This document shows, in pieces, positions 3,228-59,310 of a stretch of 64,000 bases of DNA (position 1 is the first letter of the stretch; each line of letters opens with the position of its first letter). Position numbers and translations under genes: made by a program. Source of the DNA: a virus (lineage: Duplodnaviria > Caudoviricetes); IMG/VR virus record IMGVR_UViG_3300036805_000137, positions 1 through 64,000 of that record; one strand, written 5' to 3'. Under the pieces are notes generated by a model that saw only the letters and a program-made list of their open reading frames with translations, ran no database searches and was not told where the DNA came from.

Positions 3228-4435
3228 TGCGCAGCGTATCCAGCCGTTTCCTGGCTGCAGTGAAAGGACCGCACAAAGTAGCATCTCGCGCGGTGCTCGT
3301 GGATGCCGCACCGCAGTTCGGACTGAATCCAACGGGCACCGAGATCCCGATTATCAGCGGCTCGATCACCACACAGTCATTGTCTGATGTGAAATCCACG
3401 CTCTCGCTCACCGTGCCTGGCGACTACTACACCGCGCTGAAACCCTATGGTACTGAATTGTTCATTGAGCGTGGCGTAGAATTTTCCAATGGTGACCGGG
3501 AAATGGTGGGCCTGGGTTACTACCGTATCGAGCAGATTACTCAAGATGAGGCACCTTTTGGGCCGGTGAGCATCCAAGGGCTTGACCGCATATCGCAACT
3601 GCAGCAAAACAAATTGGCATTTCCCTTACCGCTCAATAATGCGGACAGTCATCGCAGCGTGTTCCATCGGTTGTTTAACGGTATCTCGATCCCGCAGCAA
3701 GCCACCTACCCCGGACTCTCGCCGGCCGGATTTGCGGCGTATCCTAACGCGCGGATACCCATCAGCTGGACTAGTTACAACCCGGACACTACCACCATCA
3801 TTGGTGATCAGATTGTCGAGGATGACGCCTACGGATATCTACGAGATCTGATCAAGATATACAACGCCAGCATGATGCGATTCACCTACACTGGCGAATT
3901 GTTGGTGTACTCGATTGCTATTGATGCCAGCTACCCCGTGTACACGCTGACTGGTGGAGCCGGCGGCCAGATCATCAAGGCTAACCGGGTAACGAAACGC
4001 ACGGACGTCTCAAATTCAGTCACCGCATACGGAAGTGACCCGACCAGCATAACTGACTTTATCATCACTCAGAATGATGACCCGGCATCAGCGCTGGCTT
4101 TCAACAAAACCACCTACCCGGCATTCGGGCCGGCACCCACGTACTATTCCTCACCATTGCTGCAGACTAACGCCGATGTGGAGCTCGCAGGCGAGACACT
4201 ACTACGTCGATTTCGGATGCTGCCAGAAACCAATACGCTCACGGTCATCCCCAACGCGGCACTAGAGACCAATGATCCCATTGACGTGATCTACCGTCCG
4301 GGTATGGATCCGGTCCGCTGCATCATTGACTCAATGGTGATGCCGCTGACCGCATCAACCGGCGGCACCATTACCACACGGATCCCAACCGCTACCGAGG
4401 GGTACGGGCTGGGTCTGGGATTCCTGGGGCCATAA
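3227..4435 (+). CDS. Minor tail / baseplate hub-like protein (DUF5047-like)
   Basis: GTG at 3227 overlaps the upstream TAG (start trimmed from ORF 3140); VSSRFLAAV...ELFIERGVEF...GYYRI pattern typical of actinophage minor tail proteins. Confidence 0.7.
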   Translation: MRSVSSRFLAAVKGPHKVASRAVLVDAAPQFGLNPTGTEIPIISGSITTQSLSDVKSTLSLTVPGDYYTALKPYGTELFIERGVEFSNGDREMVGLGYYRIEQITQDEAPFGPVSIQGLDRISQLQQNKLAFPLPLNNADSHRSVFHRLFNGISIPQQATYPGLSPAGFAAYPNARIPISWTSYNPDTTTIIGDQIVEDDAYGYLRDLIKIYNASMMRFTYTGELLVYSIAIDASYPVYTLTGGAGGQIIKANRVTKRTDVSNSVTAYGSDPTSITDFIITQNDDPASALAFNKTTYPAFGPAPTYYSSPLLQTNADVELAGETLLRRFRMLPETNTLTVIPNAALETNDPIDVIYRPGMDPVRCIIDSMVMPLTASTGGTITTRIPTATEGYGLGLGFLGP

Positions 4436-14261: not shown

Positions 14262-15272
14262 TTGCCTGTTCAGTGGGCTGATGTTAGCTACTTCCAGCCT
14301 ATCGTCACTGATGAATACCCGCATCCGGTGCTGGCTATCCGGGCCAATGACGGTACCTATGAAGATCCCGCATTCGAGCACAACTACGAATGGGCTAAGG
14401 AAGCACTGACAGCCGGCCGGCTCGATATCATCATTGTCTATTGTGTGTACCGGCCGAACTGGGAACAGACCGCCAATACGTGCATGGGCATGGTTGGTCA
14501 GCCTATTGACCAGCTGGTGGTGATGATCGATGTGGAATCGTGGGGCGGCCAAATCGAGGGCAACCACTCCGCCAACATCAACAACATGCACAAGAAACTG
14601 TCGGACTGGCTGGGCAACCCGCGCCGTGTTATCGGTTACGGGAATAAGGGAGATCTTGATGCGCTGTGGCCGAGTAAGCCGCCAGGTGTGGCCTTGGTGG
14701 TGGCATCTTATGGCGGTACGACACCGACTTATCCGGGAATGGTGGCGCACCAGTACGGCGACAACATCGCGTGCAGTCCATTCGGTCCGTGTGACGCCAA
14801 CCGTGCCGACCAGCACACGGTGCAGACTCTGCTGACCACCTTTGGTATTCGTTCACGCACTAGGGAGGTTCTACACGACATGGAAAGATTGCCGGCTACT
14901 GACCGGCCGTCCGATCCCAACTCAGACCCGCGTACCTGGCCTCAGCGCAATTACACAGTCTATTTCGATGCAGCCGGCGGCTGGGAGGGTGACTGCGCTA
15001 TCGCATTCGGCTGCCAGGACTGGGGCGGCCGGACTGCAGACACCAACCGGGCTTACCTCGGTATCGCCAGCTGGAAAATGCCGGGCGGTAATTTCGAGCC
15101 GGTCCATGAGGGCGATGCCACACCGTATACCAGTGGTGGTGGCCGGGCAGTAGCCGCGCACGGTCCGGTGAGTGTTCTCGGGCCATGGGTCGCTCCGCAC
15201 GGCGCCGTTGGCATCACATTTAATTATGCGGCGCCGGGTGAGGGTTGTGTTCCGGTTGGTCGATCGGCATAG
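14262..15272 (+). CDS. Endolysin, GH25-like muramidase domain plus C-terminal domain
   Basis: WADVSYFQ...IRANDG...MIDVESWGG motifs like GH25-type actinophage lysins; TTG start with GGAGG RBS; position before a holin-like gene. Confidence 0.75.
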   Translation: MPVQWADVSYFQPIVTDEYPHPVLAIRANDGTYEDPAFEHNYEWAKEALTAGRLDIIIVYCVYRPNWEQTANTCMGMVGQPIDQLVVMIDVESWGGQIEGNHSANINNMHKKLSDWLGNPRRVIGYGNKGDLDALWPSKPPGVALVVASYGGTTPTYPGMVAHQYGDNIACSPFGPCDANRADQHTVQTLLTTFGIRSRTREVLHDMERLPATDRPSDPNSDPRTWPQRNYTVYFDAAGGWEGDCAIAFGCQDWGGRTADTNRAYLGIASWKMPGGNFEPVHEGDATPYTSGGGRAVAAHGPVSVLGPWVAPHGAVGITFNYAAPGEGCVPVGRSA

Positions 15273-15284
15273 GGAGTATCCACA

Positions 15285-15617
15285 GTGTCTATCTTCGACA
15301 AGATGAAAGATGAATTACCCACAGAAACAGGAGGCATCGAGACAATGACCAGTGCTAATGGTTCCACTCGCCCAGAGCCGTTGCTTGAGCTGTCCCGGCT
15401 GATCGGCCCGGTTATTGGGCTGGCTACCGTTGCGGTCGGCGTGGCTACCAACCTGGGTGCGGTGAGCTCGAAAACCGGCGGTTTCCTGAACAAAGGTCTC
15501 AGTTCGGCCGATATTCTGATGAGTGCTATCGGCCCGGTACTGGGTGGCATCGGCGCAATGGGTGCCGCGCACGTAGTGGCCACTCAGGGACGTAAAGTGG
15601 TTTCGCCCATTGAGTAG
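15285..15617 (+). CDS. Holin-like membrane protein
   Basis: Two hydrophobic segments, immediately after the endolysin. Confidence 0.6.
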   Translation: MSIFDKMKDELPTETGGIETMTSANGSTRPEPLLELSRLIGPVIGLATVAVGVATNLGAVSSKTGGFLNKGLSSADILMSAIGPVLGGIGAMGAAHVVATQGRKVVSPIE

Positions 15618-15633
15618 GTCTCTGGGCTGATAC

Positions 15634-15654
15634 CCCTGGCACGCACTGCCAGGG
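15634..15654 (+). terminator. Hairpin after the lysis cassette
   Basis: CCCTGGCA-cgcac-TGCCAGGG 8-bp perfect stem; no U tract. Confidence 0.4.
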
Positions 15655-15665
15655 TCACGGGGTAG

Positions 15666-15900
15666 GTGTGTGGTGCACCGGCCGGTCGGTATTCCGGGAG
15701 TGATCTGCGCGGGGATGGCGCACGACCGGCCGGTGCGGGGGAGCTGCCCTGCTCACAGTCCGATCCTGGCGGGGTGTCGCGCATCGTGAGTAGGGATGCC
15801 AGGGCCGGGCTGCCGCGCCACTTGGGAGGGGTGCCAAGAGGCGAGCGCGAGCGTAGCAGTCCGATCTTCACCATGCACGCGCAATCGCATCCCCGCACAC
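15666..15900 (+). ncRNA. Candidate structured RNA of unknown class
   Basis: 14-bp perfect stem 15675-15688/15723-15736; 10-bp stem 15747-15756/15786-15795; bulged stem 15816-15843; loop 15709-15717 complementary to 15888-15896; strand assumed from context. Confidence 0.5.
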
Positions 15901-15947
15901 GGACAGTCGTTACCCGGGGCAGGGAGTAATCCACCAACTGAGGGAGT

Positions 15948-16601
15948 GTGCTCACCCACATGCAACGTCTTGCCAGCTCAGGCCTGATCGCAGCGGTGGC
16001 TACCGGCTGCCTGCTCACTGCTACACCCAGTGCCACTGCTGCACCACCGTGCGCTGATGGCTATTTCCTGCCCGCATCAAGCCTGTTTTGCGTTCCCGAC
16101 CCTACGGCCATTGCGCCACAAGCTGCCCCTGCACCAGCACCACCTGCAGCGCCGGCACCCGCACCGCGGCGCACAATCCTCGATCGGTTACTCGGCCGCA
16201 ATCGACCCGCGCCGGCAGCACCTGTCCCCGCAGCGCCGGCACCCCCGCCAGCTACCGCCACGCCACCGCCACCTACCCCTCCTGCCCAGACACCACCACA
16301 AACCGGCCCGAACCAAGCCGGCGGCAACTCAACCAGCGGAGGCGACGCGGGGGTACTCGGCCCATTGGGGCCAGTGGTCTCCCCCGGCACCGGTAGTGGC
16401 CCGGACTCGGGTGCCAACGGCATTGGTCTGGTGCCTGGCGGCTCGCACTGCTCACCGGGTGCGGTGATAGCCGTGTTGGGCGACGTGTACACGTGTCCTG
16501 TGACAGCCGGCCCGTTGCAAACGCAAACCGCCATCATTCCGGGCCAGCCGCCTGCAGCGGGACAGAGCATTGTGGAGTACCACCTGCCCGTTACCGGCTA
16601 G
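15948..16601 (+). CDS. Secreted Pro-rich protein
   Basis: Signal-peptide-like N-terminus (LIAAVATGCLLTATPSATA-APP); Pro-rich linker; paired Cys at both ends. Confidence 0.65.
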   Translation: MLTHMQRLASSGLIAAVATGCLLTATPSATAAPPCADGYFLPASSLFCVPDPTAIAPQAAPAPAPPAAPAPAPRRTILDRLLGRNRPAPAAPVPAAPAPPPATATPPPPTPPAQTPPQTGPNQAGGNSTSGGDAGVLGPLGPVVSPGTGSGPDSGANGIGLVPGGSHCSPGAVIAVLGDVYTCPVTAGPLQTQTAIIPGQPPAAGQSIVEYHLPVTG

Positions 16602-17078: not shown

Positions 17079-18428
17079 GTGAATGATCAACTAGCGCTTA
17101 TCGGGGATGACACCCGCGTCCCGCTGGTCACCGGCAAATACTTGCGGTACCTCAATTTCGACTATGCCGCTGGTACCCCGTGCCTGGCCGCGGTCTGGAT
17201 CGCAGTGCAGAAGTTGCTGCCCTGGTATTCCAGCGTGCACCGCGGCGCCGGCTATAAGTCGCAGGTCTGCACGGAGCTCTACGAAAAAGCCCGGGTGCAT
17301 GTCCGCAACTTCGCAGGCGCGGCGCCGGACACCTGCGTGATCTTCACGCGCAACACCACGGATGCGCTTAACCTGCTCGCCCACTCGCTGCCGGCCGGCG
17401 CCCGGGTGGTCTCCTGGGCCAGCGACCATCACGCGCCACTGCTGAGCATGCAGCGTGCACACCATCACGTGCTGCCCATCCCTGCGCACCCGGCCGATGC
17501 GCTAGCCGACCTCGCCCACGTGCTGCGCCACTACCAAGTGGACTTGGTCGCCATCACCGCGGCCAGCAACGTAACCGGCGAGATCTGGCCCTACCGCGAG
17601 ATTGCTGCGATGTGCCGCGCGGTGGGTACCAAGACGGTGCTTGATGCTGCCCAGATGGCCCCGCACCGGCAGCTTGACATGGAGCAATGGGGCATTGATT
17701 TCGTGGCGTTTTCCGGCGGCAAGCTCTACGCACCATTCGGCTGCGGGGCGCTGGTCGGCTATGCCATGTGGCTGGAGACCGGCGCGCCGATGCTCCGCGG
17801 TGGCGGGGCAGTTGATTACGTGCACCTCGATGAGGTTTTCTGGACGTCGCTGCCCGACCGCCAGGAGGCCGGCTCACCCAACCTCATTGGTGCAGTGGCC
17901 CTGGGTGAGGCCTGCCGGATCCTCACCCACGCCGGCATGGCCCGGCTAGAGGTCACAGAGACGCAGCTGCACCGCCGGCTAGAAGCTCGCCTAGCCAAGG
18001 TGGACGGGTTGACCCTGCACCGAATGTGGCCGGCGGGTGAGGTCTCTCGGCTGGGTGTGTCGTGCTGGACAGCGCAGCAAGTGGGCTATGCCAAGTTCGC
18101 TACCGTGCTGTCAGCTGAGTGGGCGGCCGGCGTGCGCCACGGCTGTCTGTGTGCCCATCCACTGGTGACCAAACTGCTGGGCATCGATGACATCACCGCC
18201 CGCACCTTGGGAGCTGCCAAGGCGGCAGGCGACCAGCGATTGCCGGGTGTAGTGCGTGGGTCGATTGGCCTGGGCACCACAGGTGAGGATGTTGACGCGC
18301 TGGTCGCTGCAGTCGAGGCGATTTGCGCGGGCGAGATCGAGTGGACTTACGAGCTGAGCGCGGATCACACCCAGTGCCGGCCCGACCCTGACCCCCGGAC
18401 TGCCATGGCGGCCGGTGTCCCTCTCTAG
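17079..18428 (+). CDS. PLP-dependent class V aminotransferase, cysteine desulfurase (SufS/CsdA)-like
   Basis: SVHRGAG, IFTRNTTDALN, DAAQ, FSGGKLYAPFG (PLP Lys), EAGSPN and RHGCLCAHP (catalytic Cys) motifs. Confidence 0.9.
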   Translation: MNDQLALIGDDTRVPLVTGKYLRYLNFDYAAGTPCLAAVWIAVQKLLPWYSSVHRGAGYKSQVCTELYEKARVHVRNFAGAAPDTCVIFTRNTTDALNLLAHSLPAGARVVSWASDHHAPLLSMQRAHHHVLPIPAHPADALADLAHVLRHYQVDLVAITAASNVTGEIWPYREIAAMCRAVGTKTVLDAAQMAPHRQLDMEQWGIDFVAFSGGKLYAPFGCGALVGYAMWLETGAPMLRGGGAVDYVHLDEVFWTSLPDRQEAGSPNLIGAVALGEACRILTHAGMARLEVTETQLHRRLEARLAKVDGLTLHRMWPAGEVSRLGVSCWTAQQVGYAKFATVLSAEWAAGVRHGCLCAHPLVTKLLGIDDITARTLGAAKAAGDQRLPGVVRGSIGLGTTGEDVDALVAAVEAICAGEIEWTYELSADHTQCRPDPDPRTAMAAGVPL

Positions 18429-18611
18429 CGCGCCGCATCACCGCGGCGTGGCCAGATACCTCCCCAACGGGTGCATTACGCTGCGCCTCTTACCTGCTAC
18501 TAACCCTGCCGATACCGTCCGGGTGTGCCCGATCGTGCTGCAGCGCAAAACCCCCGGCGTCGCCGTAGCGGTACCGGTCCCCCGTGCGCATTGGTGATCA
18601 CCTGGGCACTG

Positions 18612-18773
18612 ATGTCTGATCCCGCGCTGCGCAGTGCAATGGAATTTGCGGTTGCACGTGCAGACAGTGCGCGGCAGCGTTCCCGCCAAGGCCGGCGCCG
18701 GATGGCACTAGCCCTGAGCTGCCTGACCCTGGTAGCGGTATGCACCCGTGCGGTGCTCTGGCTCGTGCTGTAA
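18612..18773 (+). CDS. Small membrane protein
   Basis: C-terminal hydrophobic helix; start trimmed from ORF 18525. Confidence 0.4.
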   Translation: MSDPALRSAMEFAVARADSARQRSRQGRRRMALALSCLTLVAVCTRAVLWLVL

Positions 18774-18832
18774 GCTCAACCCCGCCACGGTGAGGCACCG
18801 CGCAAGTTCTCACTCTGGTGGTTTCTCTCAAT

Positions 18833-18887
18833 CCAAAATGGCCCCCTATCTCTCCTGTGTGCGGGAGTGGATAGGGGGCCATTTTGG
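18833..18887. terminator. Bidirectional terminator-like hairpin
   Basis: Perfect 18-bp inverted repeat CCAAAATGGCCCCCTATC / GATAGGGGGCCATTTTGG between convergent gene blocks. Confidence 0.75.
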
Positions 18888-18898
18888 CGTGCACGGAC

Positions 18899-19132
18899 TC
18901 AGACGCGTGCGCCTCCAAACATGATCTCGGGCAGATCAGCGTAGGCAATCGCGCTGGCCTCGATGCTTTCGGGAGCCAGTTCATCGGTTGCGGTCTGGTA
19001 GCGGTAGCGGCCTATGGAGATGGCTACCTCTGAACTCTCGGCATCGATGATCCACGCATGGGCCGGGTGGTCGGCATGGCTGCACACCACCAGAAAGGGC
19101 GAGGGCGTGGTCGAAGCGGTGGCGCTAGTCAT
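18899..19132 (-). CDS. Hypothetical protein
   Basis: AAGGAG RBS upstream; 77 aa. Confidence 0.6.
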   Translation of the reverse strand: MTSATASTTPSPFLVVCSHADHPAHAWIIDAESSEVAISIGRYRYQTATDELAPESIEASAIAYADLPEIMFGGARV

Positions 19133-52294: not shown

Positions 52295-52331
52295 AGAACT
52301 GGCACGATTCGGCATACACATAACGGGGTAG

Positions 52332-52709
52332 GTGGTTAGAATGCAGTCACACGTGCCAGGACAGGTATACCTTTTGCATTTCACGGTTCCCTACGTGGCA
52401 ATCCAGCATCCAGGCAAAAAATACCAGTGTGCAAAGCATTACCTGGGCTGGTCGAAAGATCTCATCGCCCGGCTGGCTGCGCACAAGAATGGCAATGGCT
52501 CGCGATTGGTGCAGGTAATCAACGATGCTGGTATCGAATGGGAGCTGGCCCGGGTGTGGAATGGTGACCGTTTCCTCGAGAGACAATTAAAGAAACGTGG
52601 TGGACGTAGCCGGATCTGTCCTATCTGCCAGGGCACCGGAATAGCCCTGCAGTGGGAGACATATAACACAACCGCAGCATTACTAACCGGGATAAGTGTG
52701 GGTGCATAA
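52332..52709 (+). CDS. GIY-YIG-like nuclease
   Basis: VYLLHF...HYLGWS..L..RL..H..G.G...E..LK...CPIC. Confidence 0.7.
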   Translation: MVRMQSHVPGQVYLLHFTVPYVAIQHPGKKYQCAKHYLGWSKDLIARLAAHKNGNGSRLVQVINDAGIEWELARVWNGDRFLERQLKKRGGRSRICPICQGTGIALQWETYNTTAALLTGISVGA

Positions 52710-55700: not shown

Positions 55701-58228
55701 CTTCACAAGATCAAACGAGTGAAATGTCCGATTCACCTACTCCGTGTACTAAGCAATCAACTTCACCCGCCGTTCACCCTCCTGTGACCGAAACGAGACC
55801 TGATCTTGTGACGGGTTCAAACCCGTCACACAACCCGTCACAAACCCGTCACAAGATCAACATTCCTCCTACCAGTAGTAATACTCTTATTTTTGATCTA
55901 TGTGACGGGTTGACGGGTTTTTCTAGCTATGGAGCTGTCATAAAAAATGAAGATCAATCTTCCTTAATGATCTCTGGGCAAATATATGGGGATATACCCG
56001 AGGTAACCCGTCACCCGTCACAGTCGATCATTTCAGAGGGGGTGACCTCGCGAAACGACTGTGACGGGTCATTTTCCCAACCAGTCACAGAGCCCGCGGC
56101 CAGCCCGGCGCCGGTCGTGACCTGCGAGCCGCTAGCCCAAATGGATGAGGCCAGCGCTACGGCGCGGCTAGTCGAGCTGCGAGCCCAGCGCACCCAGCTC
56201 AATAGGTTGATCAAGAAAACTAACGGGGCAGATCCCCTGCACGGCGTGTACACGTACACGGTGGGCCAGCTGGCCGGCGAGATCAAGCAAGTCGAGGTGA
56301 TGATCCGAGGCCACCGCGCGGCGACCAAGCGAGCGGCAGCGGTAGCGGAAGCCGGCGGTGATCTCCTAGAGCTCCCAGCGATCAAACTGCGGGGCCAGCC
56401 GGCCCGCTCGTGCTCCGTGGATGAGGCTGCCGCTGCGGTGCGAGCCACCATGGCAGCCCGGGCTGGCCGCGTGACGGCCGATATCGAATCCAACGCCTAC
56501 CCGATCGGGCACCCGGACTACGGCGTGCGCACGCTGCAGCTGGGCGATGCGCTCACCGGCACGGACTGGGATGTCACTGACCCGGTGCAGTTCGCCGTGT
56601 GCACCTTGCTCCTGAGCGAGGCAACCGAGATCGAGGCCTACTCCGCATCAGTCGAGATATCCAACCTGGCCTACATCGGCATGATCGATTACCGCAGCGG
56701 CTGGGCGCGAGCTCGCGATGTAGTGATCCAAGCCCAGTTGAACAACCCAGTGGGCACGCTGAGCTCGGACAGCGGCCTAAAACCGCAAGCGGAGCTGCAC
56801 CTGCCGGATCCGGCCAGCCCGGCAGCCGATGCGCGCCGCGCCGCGCTGTTCAAAGCGGGCGGCTGGATCACTGACACCAAGATCAAAAACGCCGGCGGTA
56901 GTGAGGGTGGCGGCTGGGTAGCCCGCGAGCGCTCTGGTTGGGCCAACGCCGACCCCCGGTACCGCACCAGCATTGACTATGCCGTCTCTGACATCCATGA
57001 CACAGCTGCGCTGGGTGAGGCCCTACCGATGCCGGCGCCAGGCGTCTACGCGCGGGAGGTGGCCGTACAGGCGGCTGTAGGGGCAGTTTCCTACGTGGGC
57101 ATCGCGCTCGATCGCAGCCATATCGAGGCCAAGATCGCAGAGCACTCGCCAATGCGCCGCGCCGCTGCGGAGGAACTGGCCGCGATGGGCATCACCAACC
57201 CGGGCAGCAACGATCAGATAGCCGCGGTGTTGATGGCTCACGGCGCCCGGCTGCCCCGGGGGGAAAAATCAGGCAAGCCCGGCGTAGCAGCGGGTGTGCT
57301 GGAAAAACTACCGCGCAATCAGGGTGAGCAATTTACACCCATTGTGGAAGCGATACTACGATTTCGGCATCATCAGCGGATCCTGTCCACCTACCTGCGA
57401 CCCTATTACCTGCTGTGCACCCATGGGGATGGACGGATGCGCAGCACCGTGTACACGCTGCAGGCTGATACCGGCCGCATGTCCTGTGTCCACGAGAATC
57501 TGACCAACATCCCGCGCATCGGCGGAATTCGAGAATCTTATGTCACTGACCCGGGGGATCTGTTCGTAGATGCTGACCTTTCCGGGGTAGAGGTGGCCGT
57601 ACTCGCCGCGCTATCACAGGATCCGGTATTGCTTGAGCTGGTTGCCTCTGGTCGGAAACTGCACAAAATCATTGCTGAAATGGTCTACGGAGCTGGTTAC
57701 TCAGGCGAGGAATACACCTACGTCAAAAATGGTGTGTTCGCCAAACTCTACGGCGCGGGCATCGCGCGCATTGCCGATACGGTCGGTTGCACTGAGCGGG
57801 AAGCTCAGATGATGGTGGATGCGCTCGATGAGCTAGCCCCGCACACCAAGCGATGGGGTTATGATCTGCGCAATAAGGCCAAGGCAGGCATGCAGCGGGT
57901 GCAATTGTATTCCGGCCGGGTGCTGCACCTGCCGTCCGCGACTCCGCACAAGATAGTGAATTACTATGTCCAAGGTACCGCGCGTGAGCTCTTGGTTGAC
58001 GGGTTGCTGAGATGGCGCCAGACAAAGTGGGGCGACTACGGCATCATTGTGCCCGTGCATGATGAGATCCTGGCCACCGTGCCCGCGGTAGAGGCTGACG
58101 AGGCCATGGCTGCGTTGGGCCAGTGCATGGCCTCAGAGCTCTACGGCGTGCGCATCGGCGCCGAACCCAAGTGGATCAATCCCTCTGACCGCTGGCTGTC
58201 CAATGACCACCCACTAGCGAAAGGCTAA
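52709..58228 (+). CDS. Fused primase-polymerase / SF3 helicase / 3'-5' exonuclease / family A DNA polymerase
   Basis: AEP IDID; Walker A GETGRGKT, Walker B AFIDEG, motif C LMLTCN; Exo DIE and YAVSD; TGRMS..NLTNIP, DLSGVE, K...F...YG, VHDE. Confidence 0.88.
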   Translation: MAYGGYASFYVIAGWRCVLPVPVRSKTPPPTGYTGDHGTDVVAPEVLAKWERAHADDSIALRLPAGVICIDIDHYDKPKVLPDGTVTVVAKRGNDTIAEYEAKWGPLPPTWASTARGDPNTGAGPSRTLFYRVPPGRYATTLGDPRNGAVEILQRHHRYCVVWPSINPDANNAQYYWYGPGDLGEQRPPWIDELTLLPNAWVIGLAEGASAASAPAAPMAEGAALLAALLDDDRPPCADITNIALTAADELDHAAAGSRHDIATGRIFQLIRAAAFGHPGAGEVLADLRTRWDALTAGEHRADEFERMASSAACKAVTEVSATGCPVPVAYDPCLMGTVVAPPVPGRPSHTTGPDGELDDASDADVLDIPAPAPPIIWSRRALIGTGAFDPRGHLDQVLAAQALERIQPVLRFATDVGAWAVRGPYSWDMAPGDMADWALTELFDLMPHGDPDSESTEAQDRAARRKRFGQNSGSAGIASKLRALVRASGASSTVRLSDLDADPEIMWAGRLPWALRSCIERPALANLPADTPHLHSAGVAPSGLGIEHPTPAWDAFLAAVWPDPAIRQWALHVVSVALTGYSDAVMPLLWGETGRGKTAFTALVMSVLGSYAIAADPRLLTSAADNAHASIIYALRGVRLAFIDEGPRDAKWAVSKLKQLTGGARLTGNPMRGNPVNFDPSHTLMLTCNPEETPGFQDKALRRRLRLIPCEGEPDAVGRARAAITPAIWRAEAPGVLAKLMHATARWLDDPGVAAQWSAPEAIRFRAEDIANEEDQIRQWIDAEMEPCDHGTRVSDLLIWFIDWLRKVAPRANPPSATLFGRKLTELGYLALHQRDGKHRPLRRRQTNYGPDVPPPSAPGPGQPIHAPLPPMPPLTVIQYDQRNAAPRSTGPSADAAPTTAPDGGSARSSDNPGDLPTPPTETIMSSGAVVPREPTPVAETEPQTRNCAQANETASADPRSPGSDRICEKLGQTDGDGDLAASAELDRRHEQSSKRSSQDQTSEMSDSPTPCTKQSTSPAVHPPVTETRPDLVTGSNPSHNPSQTRHKINIPPTSSNTLIFDLCDGLTGFSSYGAVIKNEDQSSLMISGQIYGDIPEVTRHPSQSIISEGVTSRNDCDGSFSQPVTEPAASPAPVVTCEPLAQMDEASATARLVELRAQRTQLNRLIKKTNGADPLHGVYTYTVGQLAGEIKQVEVMIRGHRAATKRAAAVAEAGGDLLELPAIKLRGQPARSCSVDEAAAAVRATMAARAGRVTADIESNAYPIGHPDYGVRTLQLGDALTGTDWDVTDPVQFAVCTLLLSEATEIEAYSASVEISNLAYIGMIDYRSGWARARDVVIQAQLNNPVGTLSSDSGLKPQAELHLPDPASPAADARRAALFKAGGWITDTKIKNAGGSEGGGWVARERSGWANADPRYRTSIDYAVSDIHDTAALGEALPMPAPGVYAREVAVQAAVGAVSYVGIALDRSHIEAKIAEHSPMRRAAAEELAAMGITNPGSNDQIAAVLMAHGARLPRGEKSGKPGVAAGVLEKLPRNQGEQFTPIVEAILRFRHHQRILSTYLRPYYLLCTHGDGRMRSTVYTLQADTGRMSCVHENLTNIPRIGGIRESYVTDPGDLFVDADLSGVEVAVLAALSQDPVLLELVASGRKLHKIIAEMVYGAGYSGEEYTYVKNGVFAKLYGAGIARIADTVGCTEREAQMMVDALDELAPHTKRWGYDLRNKAKAGMQRVQLYSGRVLHLPSATPHKIVNYYVQGTARELLVDGLLRWRQTKWGDYGIIVPVHDEILATVPAVEADEAMAALGQCMASELYGVRIGAEPKWINPSDRWLSNDHPLAKG
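55801..56089. repeat. Iteron array and AT-rich core, candidate replication origin inside the replicase gene
   Basis: ACCCGTCACA exact at 55807(-), 55821, 55833, 55844, 55901(-), 56013, 56060(-); 8-mers at 55911(-) and 56006; 1-mismatch copy at 56080; 17-bp IR 55801-55817/55843-55859. Confidence 0.8.
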
Positions 58229-59164: not shown

Positions 59165-59310
59165 GGGGGGTTTCAATGGCGGGGACCGTTGCGGGGTCTA
59201 AGTCGTGCACCGATCGGGGTAGGTGGTCAACCAGAGCTCGCAACACCGATTGTATCCCAGCTTACCGAGAGCTAACCAGTGCGGGCTAGAACTTTACCGT
59301 CTGTTGTGGG

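What the first reader, a model, noticed from the sequence alone, without database searches (positions are those of the whole stretch)
15666..15900. Candidate novel structured RNA with a long-range pseudoknot
Seen: a 14-bp perfect stem enclosing a TGCGC/GCGCA hairpin; GCGGGGATG (15709-15717, spanning that hairpin's loop) is complementary to CATCCCCGC (15888-15896). Also a 10-bp stem with a G-U pair, a bulged 9-bp stem, a 5'/3' closing GTGTG/CACAC, and a repeated CAGTCCGATC (15756, 15857). The overlapping ORFs look non-protein-like. It sits between lysis genes and an operon ending in a cysteine-desulfurase-like gene. Inference: a riboswitch-like leader, ribozyme or phage sRNA that I cannot assign to a family.
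Basis: partly seen in the sequence, partly recalled or inferred. Interest (0 to 1): 0.7.

Follow-up and report, generated by a model that had tools for sequence, protein, structure and literature searches.

The report
Conserved folded RNA in phage lysis cassette
The gene-free gap between a lysis membrane-protein gene and a lipoprotein gene of this uncultured actinobacterial phage holds a conserved, folded RNA-like element of about 250 bases that matches no described RNA family and most likely controls the gene downstream of it.

Summary
The window is part of a complete 82-kb metagenomic phage. The finding lies in a 342-nt gap (15618-15959) between a holin-like gene and a proline-rich lipoprotein gene.

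About 13 distinct related metagenomic contigs keep a gap of 230-440 nt at this position. No reading frame is conserved in it. It changes more slowly than third codon positions of the flanking genes. Two helices covary:
- P3 has 7 of 16 pairs changed on both sides.

Conserved unpaired boxes accompany them: CGGGGUAGGUG, GGGAG-type loops, AGCNUAGCAG, and CGCAUCC-N13-GUCGUUA. Rfam 15 gives no match.

Not supported:
- The long-range pseudoknot and the GTGTG/CACAC closing stem occur only in the window's closest relatives.
- Most relatives lack the cysteine-desulfurase-like gene.
- Plus-strand folding energy is no better than shuffled controls.

Best reading is a new intercistronic leader RNA of the lysis cassette that controls the lipoprotein gene. 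The main rival is 3'-UTR hairpins followed by a promoter-like bipartite box. Strand, transcript ends and mechanism are inferred, not shown.

The parts
15634..15654 (+). 8-bp hairpin (CCCTGGCA / TGCCAGGG) just after the holin-like stop codon. It may be a terminator-like or 5' accessory hairpin. It is present only in the window's own subgroup.
   Evidence: Read from the sequence. L002 keeps it with the outer C-G pair changed to A-U. It is absent where the upstream gene is 4-5 codons longer (L003, L005).
15658..15668 (+). 5' box CGGGGTAGGTG, a ribosome-binding-site-like repeat that resembles the start-associated sequences of Cluster K mycobacteriophages.
   Evidence: GGGGTAG is invariant in the 8-member alignment A3. 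Divergent members keep variants of the box. Exact plus-strand copies also lie at 52324 and 59215. Near copies lie 3-8 nt before start codons at 643, 14244, 41796 and 48707.
15675..15736 (+). P1, a 14-bp GC-rich helix (15675-15688 / 15723-15736). Its 34-nt apical region carries a Shine-Dalgarno-like GGGAGTGATC (15696-15705) and the small hairpin 15706-15722. A GTG abuts the helix base (its last G is the first paired base).
   Evidence: 98.7% of cells paired in 11 sequences, 8 of 14 pairs changed on both sides, 0 of 500 shuffles as good; unrelated helix sequences occupy this place in L020, L007/8 and L013.
15737..15755 (+). J1/2-P2, a GGGGGAG box plus a short hairpin (GAGC / GCTC). The hairpin is longer in other groups.
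   Evidence: P2 is clear in L003/L012 (GGAGU/ACUCC) and L005/6 (8 bp), but weak in the window's subgroup. No both-sided changes were counted.
15756..15812 (+). P3, a 15-position helix (15756-15770 / 15798-15812; 14 pairs, two of them G-U, and one A-C mismatch). It is preceded by the conserved ACAG/GCAG.
   Evidence: 16 alignment pairs, 89% paired, 7 with changes on both sides. RNAalifold recovers it de novo.
15813..15849 (+). P4, CGCC-A-CTTGG / CCAAG-A-GGCG, with the purine loop GAGGGGTG. The conserved box is CCGCGCCAC.
   Evidence: A helix sits at this place in most members. There is limited covariation: L012 inserts a U-A pair, and L006 turns a C-A mismatch into U-A. Helix sequences in L013 and L021 are unrelated. 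The alignment is uncertain.
15850..15859 (+). Conserved single-stranded box AGCGTAGCAG (family pattern RAGYNUAGCAG).
   Evidence: Found in every member by pattern and aligned by the covariance model.
15857..15866 (+). Second copy of CAGTCCGATC. It repeats the 5' strand of P3 and could pair with the P3 3' strand instead.
   Evidence: L009 keeps a similar repeat. L005 has a different repeated word, GCAGCCCAG, at both places. L003/L012 have none (read). This is unexplained.
15886..15912 (+). Bipartite 3' box CGCATCC-N13-GTCGTTA. The spacing is fixed and the spacer is not conserved.
   Evidence: The spacing is 13 nt wherever both half-sites are recognisable; in L013/14, L019 and L021 the first half-site is degenerate (read). 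The exact pattern matches once per locus in 14 of 24 loci (9 distinct members), always inside the element. It is unique in the 82-kb genome.
15921..15962 (+). Conserved AGGGAG (15921-15926), then the ribosome-binding site GAGGGAG (15940-15946) and the ATG (15960) of the lipoprotein gene.
   Evidence: The distance from GTCGTT to the start codon is 42-72 nt in all members.

Best explanation
The gap holds a previously unclassified, conserved structured RNA of about 255 nt in the window (15658-15912). It is about 175-290 nt in most relatives and about 370 nt in expanded ones. It is read on the plus strand as part of the lysis-cassette transcript, and it forms the leader of the proline-rich lipoprotein gene that always follows it.

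Anatomy, from 5' to 3':
- an RBS-like box, CGGGGUAGGUG;
- a start-codon-like (A/G)UG abutting the base of a long GC-rich helix, P1, whose apical loop shows a Shine-Dalgarno-like GGGAG(U)G;
- a short hairpin, P2;
- helix P3;
- helix P4, with a CCAC...GGAGG purine loop;
- the box AGCNUAGCAG;
- a variable hairpin;
- the fixed-spacing box CGCAUCC-N13-GUCGUUA;
- AGGGA, then the real ribosome-binding site.

Proposed mechanism (inferred): it acts in cis. By folding, and by presenting several Shine-Dalgarno-like purine loops and an RBS-like 5' box, it sets how much or when the lipoprotein gene is translated. It could also set where the long late mRNA is processed. Control would come through ribosome or protein binding, or through an unknown ligand.

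Shown: conservation, absence of coding, purifying selection, two covarying helices, and a fixed position next to the downstream start codon.
Inferred: transcription, strand, cis action and mode of control.
For: 1. A gap of 230-440 nt is kept between the holin-like and lipoprotein genes in every related contig found with both flanking genes called: L002, L003, L005-L008, L012-L014, L017, L020, L021. L009-L011 and L019 carry the element too.

2. It is non-coding. No frame is open across members, and close relatives differ by 1- and 2-nt indels.

3. It is under purifying selection. Element identity is 93, 87.5, 85, 92 and 80% in five close pairs. Third-codon-position identity of the flanking genes in the same pairs is 89/80, 70/60, 67/58, 72/76 and 64/58%.

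4. It covaries.
- P1: 14 pairs, 98.7% paired, 8 pairs and 23 cells changed on both sides, 0 of 500 shuffles as high, and at most 50% paired when the partner is slid.
- P3: 16 pairs, 89% paired, 7 changed on both sides.
- RNAalifold recovers P1 and P3 on its own.

5. A full-length covariance model built from 7 sequences finds non-seed members on the plus strand: L020 at E 2e-8, L007 at 5e-6, L019 at 2e-5, L017 at 5e-3, and L008, L013 and L014 at about 1e-2. There P1 is formed by unrelated sequences, for example GGGGAGGGGUCCG/CGGACCCCUCC in L007.

6. The element ends 42-72 nt before the lipoprotein start codon and begins about 6-55 nt after the upstream stop codon. There is no U-tract terminator and no sigma-70-like promoter in the window's gap.

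7. The plus strand is consistently G-rich (G 32-42%, C 24-31%), with the conserved unpaired boxes purine-rich.

8. Rfam 15 gives nothing at gathering scores in the window, and nothing at E up to 1 inside the gap of 7 loci.
Against: - There is no expression data.
- Plus-strand folding energies are mostly no better than shuffles (z +0.9 to -5.8, median about -1). The minus strand scores better.
- P1 changes only between Watson-Crick pairs. In P3, G-U cells (9) and A-C cells (7) are about equal. The pairing pattern therefore does not show which strand folds, or even that RNA rather than DNA folds.
- P2 and P4 have little counted covariation.
- The 3' box has strictly fixed spacing and no consistent pairing. 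That looks more like a protein-recognised bipartite site, such as a promoter, than like RNA structure.
- There are only about 13 distinct sequences in roughly 9 groups, so the covariation counts reflect few independent events.
Confidence: 0.5

Rival explanations
1. Composite control region rather than one RNA. P1-P4 would be 3'-UTR, terminator or stabiliser hairpins that end the late (lysis) transcript. CGCATCC-N13-GTCGTTA would be a DNA promoter, ECF-sigma-like with a CGT-containing -10, that drives the lipoprotein operon. The conserved AGGGA would lie near the transcription start.
For: - The spacing is 13 nt wherever both half-sites are recognisable, the spacer is unconserved, and the two half-sites show no consistent base-pairing.
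- (G/C)TCGTT resembles the CGT-type -10 of ECF promoters (my own knowledge, not tested).
- The box lies 42-72 nt before the start codon.
- P1 is a strong GC hairpin soon after a stop codon. Actinobacterial terminators often lack U-tracts (my own knowledge).
Against: - The box occurs only once in the 82-kb genome and once per related locus, so no regulon is visible.
- The phage encodes no sigma factor.
- The -35 half lacks the AAC typical of ECF promoters.
- A plain terminator does not explain conserved loops, P3, P4, the AGCNUAGCAG box, or identity far above neutral sites over the whole 250 nt.
- P1 is followed by GGGGGAG, not by U residues.
Confidence: 0.22
2. A stand-alone, trans-acting phage non-coding RNA. 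It could be a sponge for a ribosome or an RNA-binding protein through its many GGGAG-type loops. It could also be a regulator that pairs with the CGGGGTAGGTG start-associated boxes of other phage genes through its C-rich CGCAUCC(CC) box.
For: - The element carries four to five GGGAG/GGAGG motifs in loops and junctions.
- The 5' box is a repeated genomic motif that sits in front of start codons.
- The 3' box is partly complementary to it.
- Pope et al. 2011 (PMC3203893) left open whether a phage RNA or protein binds such start-associated sequences.
Against: - No promoter or terminator delimits a separate transcript.
- The element is always physically tied to the lipoprotein start codon.
- Complementarity between the 5' box and the 3' box is not better than shuffled controls (p 0.2-0.95).
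Confidence: 0.13
3. A metabolite riboswitch that controls the operon ending in the cysteine-desulfurase-like gene, sensing SAM, SAH, cysteine or cobalamin.
For: - A long structured leader lies upstream of an operon that, in the window, L002 and L003/L004, contains a class-V aminotransferase.
- It has several conserved unpaired boxes, as aptamers do.
Against: - Most relatives keep the element but lack the aminotransferase gene.
- There is no Rfam riboswitch match even at E up to 1.
- No expression platform (terminator or SD-sequestering helix) is conserved. The pseudoknot is not conserved.
Confidence: 0.05
4. A DNA-level element. The inverted repeats would act as hairpins in single-stranded DNA or as protein-binding palindromes, for example a single-strand initiation signal, a recombination site or a packaging site.
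For: - P1 changes only between Watson-Crick pairs, with no G-U pairs in 150 cells.
- The helices are equally good on both strands, and the minus strand gives better z-scores.
Against: - It lies inside a one-directional gene block, far from the replication genes (28-58 kb in the window). I did not locate the packaging genes.
- No integrase is adjacent in the gene lists of the related loci.
- Asymmetric, strand-specific G-rich conserved boxes and RBS-like motifs point to a transcript.
Confidence: 0.06
5. A small protein gene: the 87-codon GTG frame at 15666-15929, which starts in the RBS-like box.
For: The frame spans the element from the 5' box to just after AGGGAG, and it is preceded by an RBS-like motif.
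Against: - The same frame has 4 stops in L009 and is broken in all other relatives.
- Substitutions in P1 are non-synonymous but compensatory.
- Indels are not multiples of three.
- Only scattered, inconsistent gene calls exist in relatives.
Confidence: 0.02

Closest known systems
Candidate structured RNAs of phage intergenic regions (Fremin et al. 2023, PMC10690425) and large phage-borne RNAs such as GOLLD and ROOL
   Same: It is a conserved, multi-helix, non-coding region in an uncultured phage. It was found by comparative genomics and its function is unknown.
   Different: - No Rfam 15 model, including GOLLD, ROOL, raiA, HEARO and OLE, matches at E up to 1.
- It is smaller, at 175-370 nt.
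- It is tied to a lysis cassette and a start codon rather than to tRNA clusters.
- The main text of the Fremin catalogue does not mention holin, lysis, lipoprotein or Actinobacteria. Membership in its list could not be checked.
Start-associated sequences (SAS, GGGATAGGAGCCC) and extended SAS of Cluster K mycobacteriophages (Pope et al. 2011, PMC3203893)
   Same: - The 5' box CGGGGTAGGTG shares the GGGRTAGG core.
- It is repeated in the genome and lies a few bases before start codons.
- The endolysin's closest cultured relatives are Lysin A proteins of Mycobacterium and Gordonia phages.
   Different: - The sequence differs, with no GCCC tail.
- Here the box is followed by a long helix and 250 nt of conserved non-coding RNA rather than by a gene.
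- The extended-SAS inverted repeats lie upstream of the SAS with 4-13 bp spacers, whereas P1 lies downstream with a 17-36 nt loop.
- Only 3 exact plus-strand copies exist. The looser count is enriched on both strands, so part of it may be compositional.
Riboswitches and other cis-regulatory leaders of Actinobacteria (SAM-IV, cobalamin, ydaO/c-di-AMP)
   Same: It is a long structured leader just upstream of a start codon, with conserved unpaired boxes between covarying helices.
   Different: - No covariance-model match.
- No conserved expression platform.
- The downstream gene is a lipoprotein, not a metabolic gene.
- No ligand is known.
Intercistronic processing or stabiliser hairpins of phage late mRNAs (for example the RNase III sites of T7), and intrinsic terminators
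   Same: A long perfect duplex (P1, 11-20 bp) lies between two cistrons of a one-directional late gene block.
   Different: - It is much larger, with several helices and conserved loops.
- It has no U-tract.
- Cleavage was not tested.

Membership tests
Any Rfam 15 family (riboswitches, ribozymes, GOLLD, ROOL, raiA, 6S, tmRNA and others) | Covariance-model score at or above the family's gathering threshold | tested here: not met
   cmscan of the whole window gave 0 matches. A permissive scan of 7 loci at E up to 1 gave nothing in the gap.
Metabolite riboswitch (generic) | A conserved aptamer with covarying helices, plus a conserved expression platform (a terminator or an SD-sequestering helix) | tested here: inconclusive
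   Covarying helices P1 and P3 are present. No conserved terminator or SD-sequestering helix was found. Ligand binding cannot be tested here.
   Aminotran_5 lies downstream only in the window, L002 and L003/L004. It is absent in L005, L007, L008, L012, L013/14, L017, L020 and L021.
   It is 9 bp in the window and 8 bp in L009. L002 has 6 bp including 2 G-U pairs (p 0.9). All other groups are at chance level.
Intrinsic (Rho-independent) terminator | A GC-rich hairpin with a 3-8 nt loop, followed by a U-tract | tested here: not met
   The scan found no terminator-like site in 15618-15959. The P1 loop is 34 nt and is followed by GGGGGAG. U-less actinobacterial terminators cannot be excluded.
Start-associated sequence (Cluster K mycobacteriophages) | A 13-bp GGGATAGGAGCCC repeat in many copies, in one orientation, 3-7 bp upstream of start codons | tested here: inconclusive
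   The core GGGRTAGG is shared. There are 3 exact plus-strand copies, and several near copies lie 3-8 nt before start codons. The sequence differs, the GCCC part is missing, and the loose-match excess is on both strands. The definition is taken from PMC3203893.
ECF-sigma-type promoter (for the 3' box) | A -35 with AAC and a -10 with CGT at a fixed spacing of about 16-17 nt, recurring upstream of a regulon or an autoregulated sigma gene | tested here: inconclusive
   A CGT-containing second half-site and a fixed spacing are present where both half-sites are recognisable. The first half-site has no AAC. There is a single copy per genome and no phage sigma factor. Host genomes could not be searched. 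The consensus is recalled from my own knowledge.
Protein-coding small gene | An open frame kept across homologues, with indels in multiples of three | tested here: not met

The most novel reading that the evidence does not exclude
This would be a new class of phage regulatory RNA built into the lysis cassette of phages of mycolic-acid actinobacteria. It would be a 200-300-nt ribosome- or ligand-sensing leader. It would begin with a start-associated-sequence-like box, display decoy Shine-Dalgarno loops, and time production of a proline-rich, possibly spanin-like, lipoprotein, and so time lysis. It might also act in trans on the other genes that carry the same box. That would give the enigmatic start-associated sequences of actinophages their first RNA partner.
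Probability: 0.2. Interest if true: 0.8.

Novelty: new variant of a known kind. Interest (0 to 1): 0.62.

Why it matters
- Structured RNAs inside phage lysis cassettes are essentially undescribed. How phages of actinobacteria with a mycolic-acid outer layer time the last steps of lysis is poorly understood.
- This is a conserved RNA wedged between a holin-like gene and a secreted lipoprotein gene. It carries an RBS-like repeat related to the unexplained start-associated sequences of mycobacteriophages.
- It therefore offers a concrete, testable handle on both questions.
- It also adds a covariation-supported family to the pool of unclassified phage RNAs. The covariance model built here can be used to collect more members.

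Tried and rejected
**Searches for close relatives**
- Nucleotide search against cultured phages found nothing.
- IMG/VR scans with the endolysin, the lipoprotein, the aminotransferase, the holin-like profile and an exact DNA word found nothing.
- GTDB genomes have no prophage with the holin-like protein.
- The holin-like protein has no tblastn hit in cultured phages.

**Tools and methods that did not work**
- Drawing relatives is not possible for a virus record.
- MAFFT Q-INS-i is unavailable.

**Ideas tested and dropped**
- tRNA or tmRNA: none.
- A canonical sigma-70 promoter or U-tract terminator in the gap: none.
- The 5' box as a SigF-like or sigma-70 -10 element: by eye I found no conserved -35 at the right distance, and in some relatives the upstream stop codon abuts the box.
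- The 87-codon ORF as a gene: rejected.
- The pseudoknot and the closing stem: rejected as conserved features.
- The 5' box pairing with the 3' box, or with CCGCGCCAC as RNAalifold proposes: both partners are conserved in sequence, so there is no covariation, and the fit is not better than shuffles.
- An anchored search for P4 gave ambiguous alternatives, including a possible pairing of the P3 loop with GCGCGA. I did not pursue it.
- Strand assignment from G-U versus A-C counts: inconclusive.
- This scan's earlier notes hold no look-alike of this sequence.

Full report
**Context.** The window is the first 64 kb of an 82,450-bp IMG/VR virus record with terminal repeats, rated complete. The finding lies in a 342-nt gap, 15618-15959.
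- Upstream are tail genes, an endolysin (14262-15272, PHROG endolysin, E 5e-22) and a 110-residue Gly/Ala-rich membrane protein that I call holin-like (15285-15617).
- Downstream are a proline-rich lipoprotein gene (ATG 15960-16601, signal peptide ending VATGC), a 166-codon ORF and a class-V aminotransferase (17079-18428, Pfam E 1.5e-69).
- The endolysin's catalytic part is about 52% identical to Lysin A of many Mycobacterium and Gordonia phages. The host is therefore probably a member of the mycolic-acid actinobacteria.

**The observation.**
- The 14-bp perfect inverted repeat (15675-15688 / 15723-15736) is one of about five of that quality in 64 kb.
- The window's own plus-strand folding energy is not unusual: z -1.28, with 24 of 200 shuffles as good. 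The minus strand gives z -2.56.
- No Rfam 15 family matches, at gathering scores for the window or at E up to 1 for seven loci.

**Relatives.** Nucleotide and protein-pattern searches of cultured phages, IMG/VR and GTDB genomes found nothing. The large protein database did have homologues of the lipoprotein and of the holin-like protein.
- Their contigs, plus three from a metagenome scan, gave about 13 distinct loci from JGI and Logan metagenomes.
- In every locus with both genes called, the holin-like gene is followed by a gene-free gap of 230-440 nt and then the lipoprotein gene.
- The aminotransferase is present only in the window, L002 and L003/L004. The element therefore goes with the lysis genes and the lipoprotein, not with the desulfurase-like enzyme.

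**Non-coding and under selection.** No frame is open across the members. The window's 87-codon frame has four stops in L009, whose holin-like protein is 93% identical. Close relatives differ by 1- and 2-nt indels.
- The element is nevertheless well conserved. In five close pairs its identity is 93, 87.5, 85, 92 and 80%.
- Third codon positions of the two flanking genes are 89/80, 70/60, 67/58, 72/76 and 64/58% identical in the same pairs.

**Structure.** Two helices are well supported.
- P1, on an 11-sequence MAFFT alignment not fitted to structure, has 14 pairs and 98.7% of cells paired. Eight pairs (23 cells) changed on both sides and none changed on one side only. None of 500 shuffles reached these values, and at most 50% of cells paired when partners were slid.
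- On a 7-sequence full-length alignment, P3 has 16 pairs, 89% paired, with 7 changed on both sides. The whole P1-P4 structure beats all shuffles and all slides.
- RNAalifold recovers P1 and P3 unaided.
- P2 and P4 are visible in each group. P4 shows a U-A insertion in L012 and a C-A to U-A change in L006. P2 and P4 score weakly because the alignment there is unreliable.
- A covariance model of the 5' box plus P1 finds the non-seed L020 at E 0.005.
- A full-length model from seven sequences finds L020 (2e-8), L007 (5e-6), L019 (2e-5), L017 (5e-3) and L008, L013 and L014 (about 1e-2), all on the plus strand.
- In those members P1 is built from unrelated sequences, for example GGGGAGGGGUCCG/CGGACCCCUCC in L007.
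- L007/8 and L013/14 carry an extra 5' hairpin module.

**Conserved unpaired boxes.** From 5' to 3' they are:
- CGGGGUAGGUG at the 5' end;
- an (A/G)UG abutting the base of P1 in most members;
- a Shine-Dalgarno-like GGGAG(U)G in the P1 loop (GGGAGUGAUC in the window, GGUGGUGAUC in L021);
- GGGGAG after P1, and CGCAG before P3;
- CCAC...GGAGG in P4;
- AGCNUAGCAG;
- CGCAUCC-N13-(G/C)UCGUU(A/G), with a spacing of 13 nt wherever both half-sites are recognisable (they are degenerate in L013/14, L019 and L021) and an unconserved spacer;
- AGGGA, then the real ribosome-binding site.

The plus strand is G-rich throughout.

**What did not hold.**
- The 9-bp complementarity between the P1 loop and the 3' box exists only in the window and its near twin L009. 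L002 and all other groups are at chance level.
- The GTGTG/CACAC stem is deleted in L002.
- Plus-strand z-scores across the family range from +0.9 to -5.8, with a median of about -1. They are always better on the minus strand.
- P1 has no G-U pairs at all, and P3 has as many A-C as G-U cells. Pairing therefore does not identify the strand, or even RNA as opposed to DNA.
- I assign the plus strand for three reasons: the one-directional, tightly packed gene context; the asymmetric purine-rich boxes; and the RBS-like motifs.

**The 5' box.**
- CGGGGTAGGTG has exact plus-strand copies at 15658, 52324 and 59215, and one minus-strand copy at 3703.
- Near copies sit 3-8 nt before start codons at 643, 14244, 41796 and 48707.
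- This resembles the start-associated sequences (GGGATAGGAGCCC) of Cluster K mycobacteriophages. Their function is unknown, and their discoverers suggested that a phage RNA or protein might bind them (PMC3203893).
- The looser match count (59 against 24 expected) is spread over both strands, so it may be partly compositional.

**The 3' box.** Fixed spacing without pairing suggests recognition by a protein.
- An ECF-type promoter is a serious rival for this part, because it has a CGT-containing second half-site.
- Against that: the box is unique in the genome and in each locus; the phage has no sigma factor; and the first half-site lacks the usual AAC (my own knowledge).

**Interpretation.** The best-supported reading is a new, conserved structured RNA that serves as the intercistronic leader of the lipoprotein gene within the lysis cassette.
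- It probably governs translation, timing or processing.
- That it is a functional, selected, structured element I hold at about 0.75-0.8.
- The cis-leader mechanism I hold at about 0.5.
- Rivals, in order: 3'-UTR hairpins plus a promoter; a trans-acting RNA; a DNA-level element; a riboswitch for the desulfurase operon; a small protein.

**Novelty.**
- No Rfam family matches.
- The 2023 catalogue of more than ten thousand candidate structured RNAs of viruses and phages (PMC10690425) does not mention such a context in its text. Its sequence lists could not be compared.
- As a kind, an unclassified structured RNA in a phage intergenic region, it is not unprecedented.
- Its place inside a lysis cassette, its start-associated-like box and its decoy Shine-Dalgarno loops are unusual.

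Noticed in passing
window 52324-52334, 59215-59225, 48707, 41796, 14244, 643 (+): The box CGGGGTAGGTG and near variants recur just upstream of start codons of unrelated genes. It resembles the start-associated sequences of Cluster K mycobacteriophages. The copy at 59215 lies in a 146-nt gap with no obvious gene start nearby.
   Followed up: partly
window 15960-16601 and homologues P0002-P0007: A proline-rich lipoprotein is always the first gene after the lysis genes and the RNA element. Its position and make-up recall the outer-membrane spanin lipoproteins of Gram-negative phages, so it might be a lysis accessory for a mycolic-acid outer layer. It has no Pfam or PHROG match.
   Followed up: no
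L007 313-480, L008 3625-3790, L013/L014 3371-3520: The expanded variants carry an extra 5' module: a second P1-like hairpin and, in L013/14, a second 5' box. They also hold internal copies of the xUAGCxG box. This suggests tandem duplication of part of the element.
   Followed up: partly
window 15857-15866 vs 15756-15765; L005 and L009 equivalents: The 5' strand of P3 is repeated just after the AGCNUAGCAG box in two of three sequence groups, with a different word in each group (CAGUCCGAU in one, GCAGCCCAG in the other). This could allow an alternative pairing with the P3 3' strand. The L003/L012 group lacks the repeat.
   Followed up: partly
window 18833-18887: An 18-bp perfect inverted repeat with a 19-nt loop lies where the plus-strand operon (ending 18428) meets minus-strand genes. 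It overlaps the listed minus-strand ORF 18598-18984. It may be a bidirectional terminator.
   Followed up: no
window 55801-55912 and 56013-56069: A cluster of perfect inverted repeats built on AACCCGTCACAA / ACCCGTCACAGTCG lies inside the 1839-codon replication gene. It is unexplained.
   Followed up: no
window 14262-15272: Residues 5-198 of the endolysin are about 52% identical to Lysin A of many Mycobacterium and Gordonia phages. The rest of the protein and the holin-like gene have no cultured-phage relatives. No LysB-like esterase was recognised among the lysis genes scanned.
   Followed up: partly
window 17079-18428: The class-V aminotransferase (cysteine-desulfurase-like) gene is an accessory cargo. 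It is present in only some relatives (window, L002, L003/L004) and absent from most contigs that share the lysis cassette and the RNA element.
   Followed up: partly
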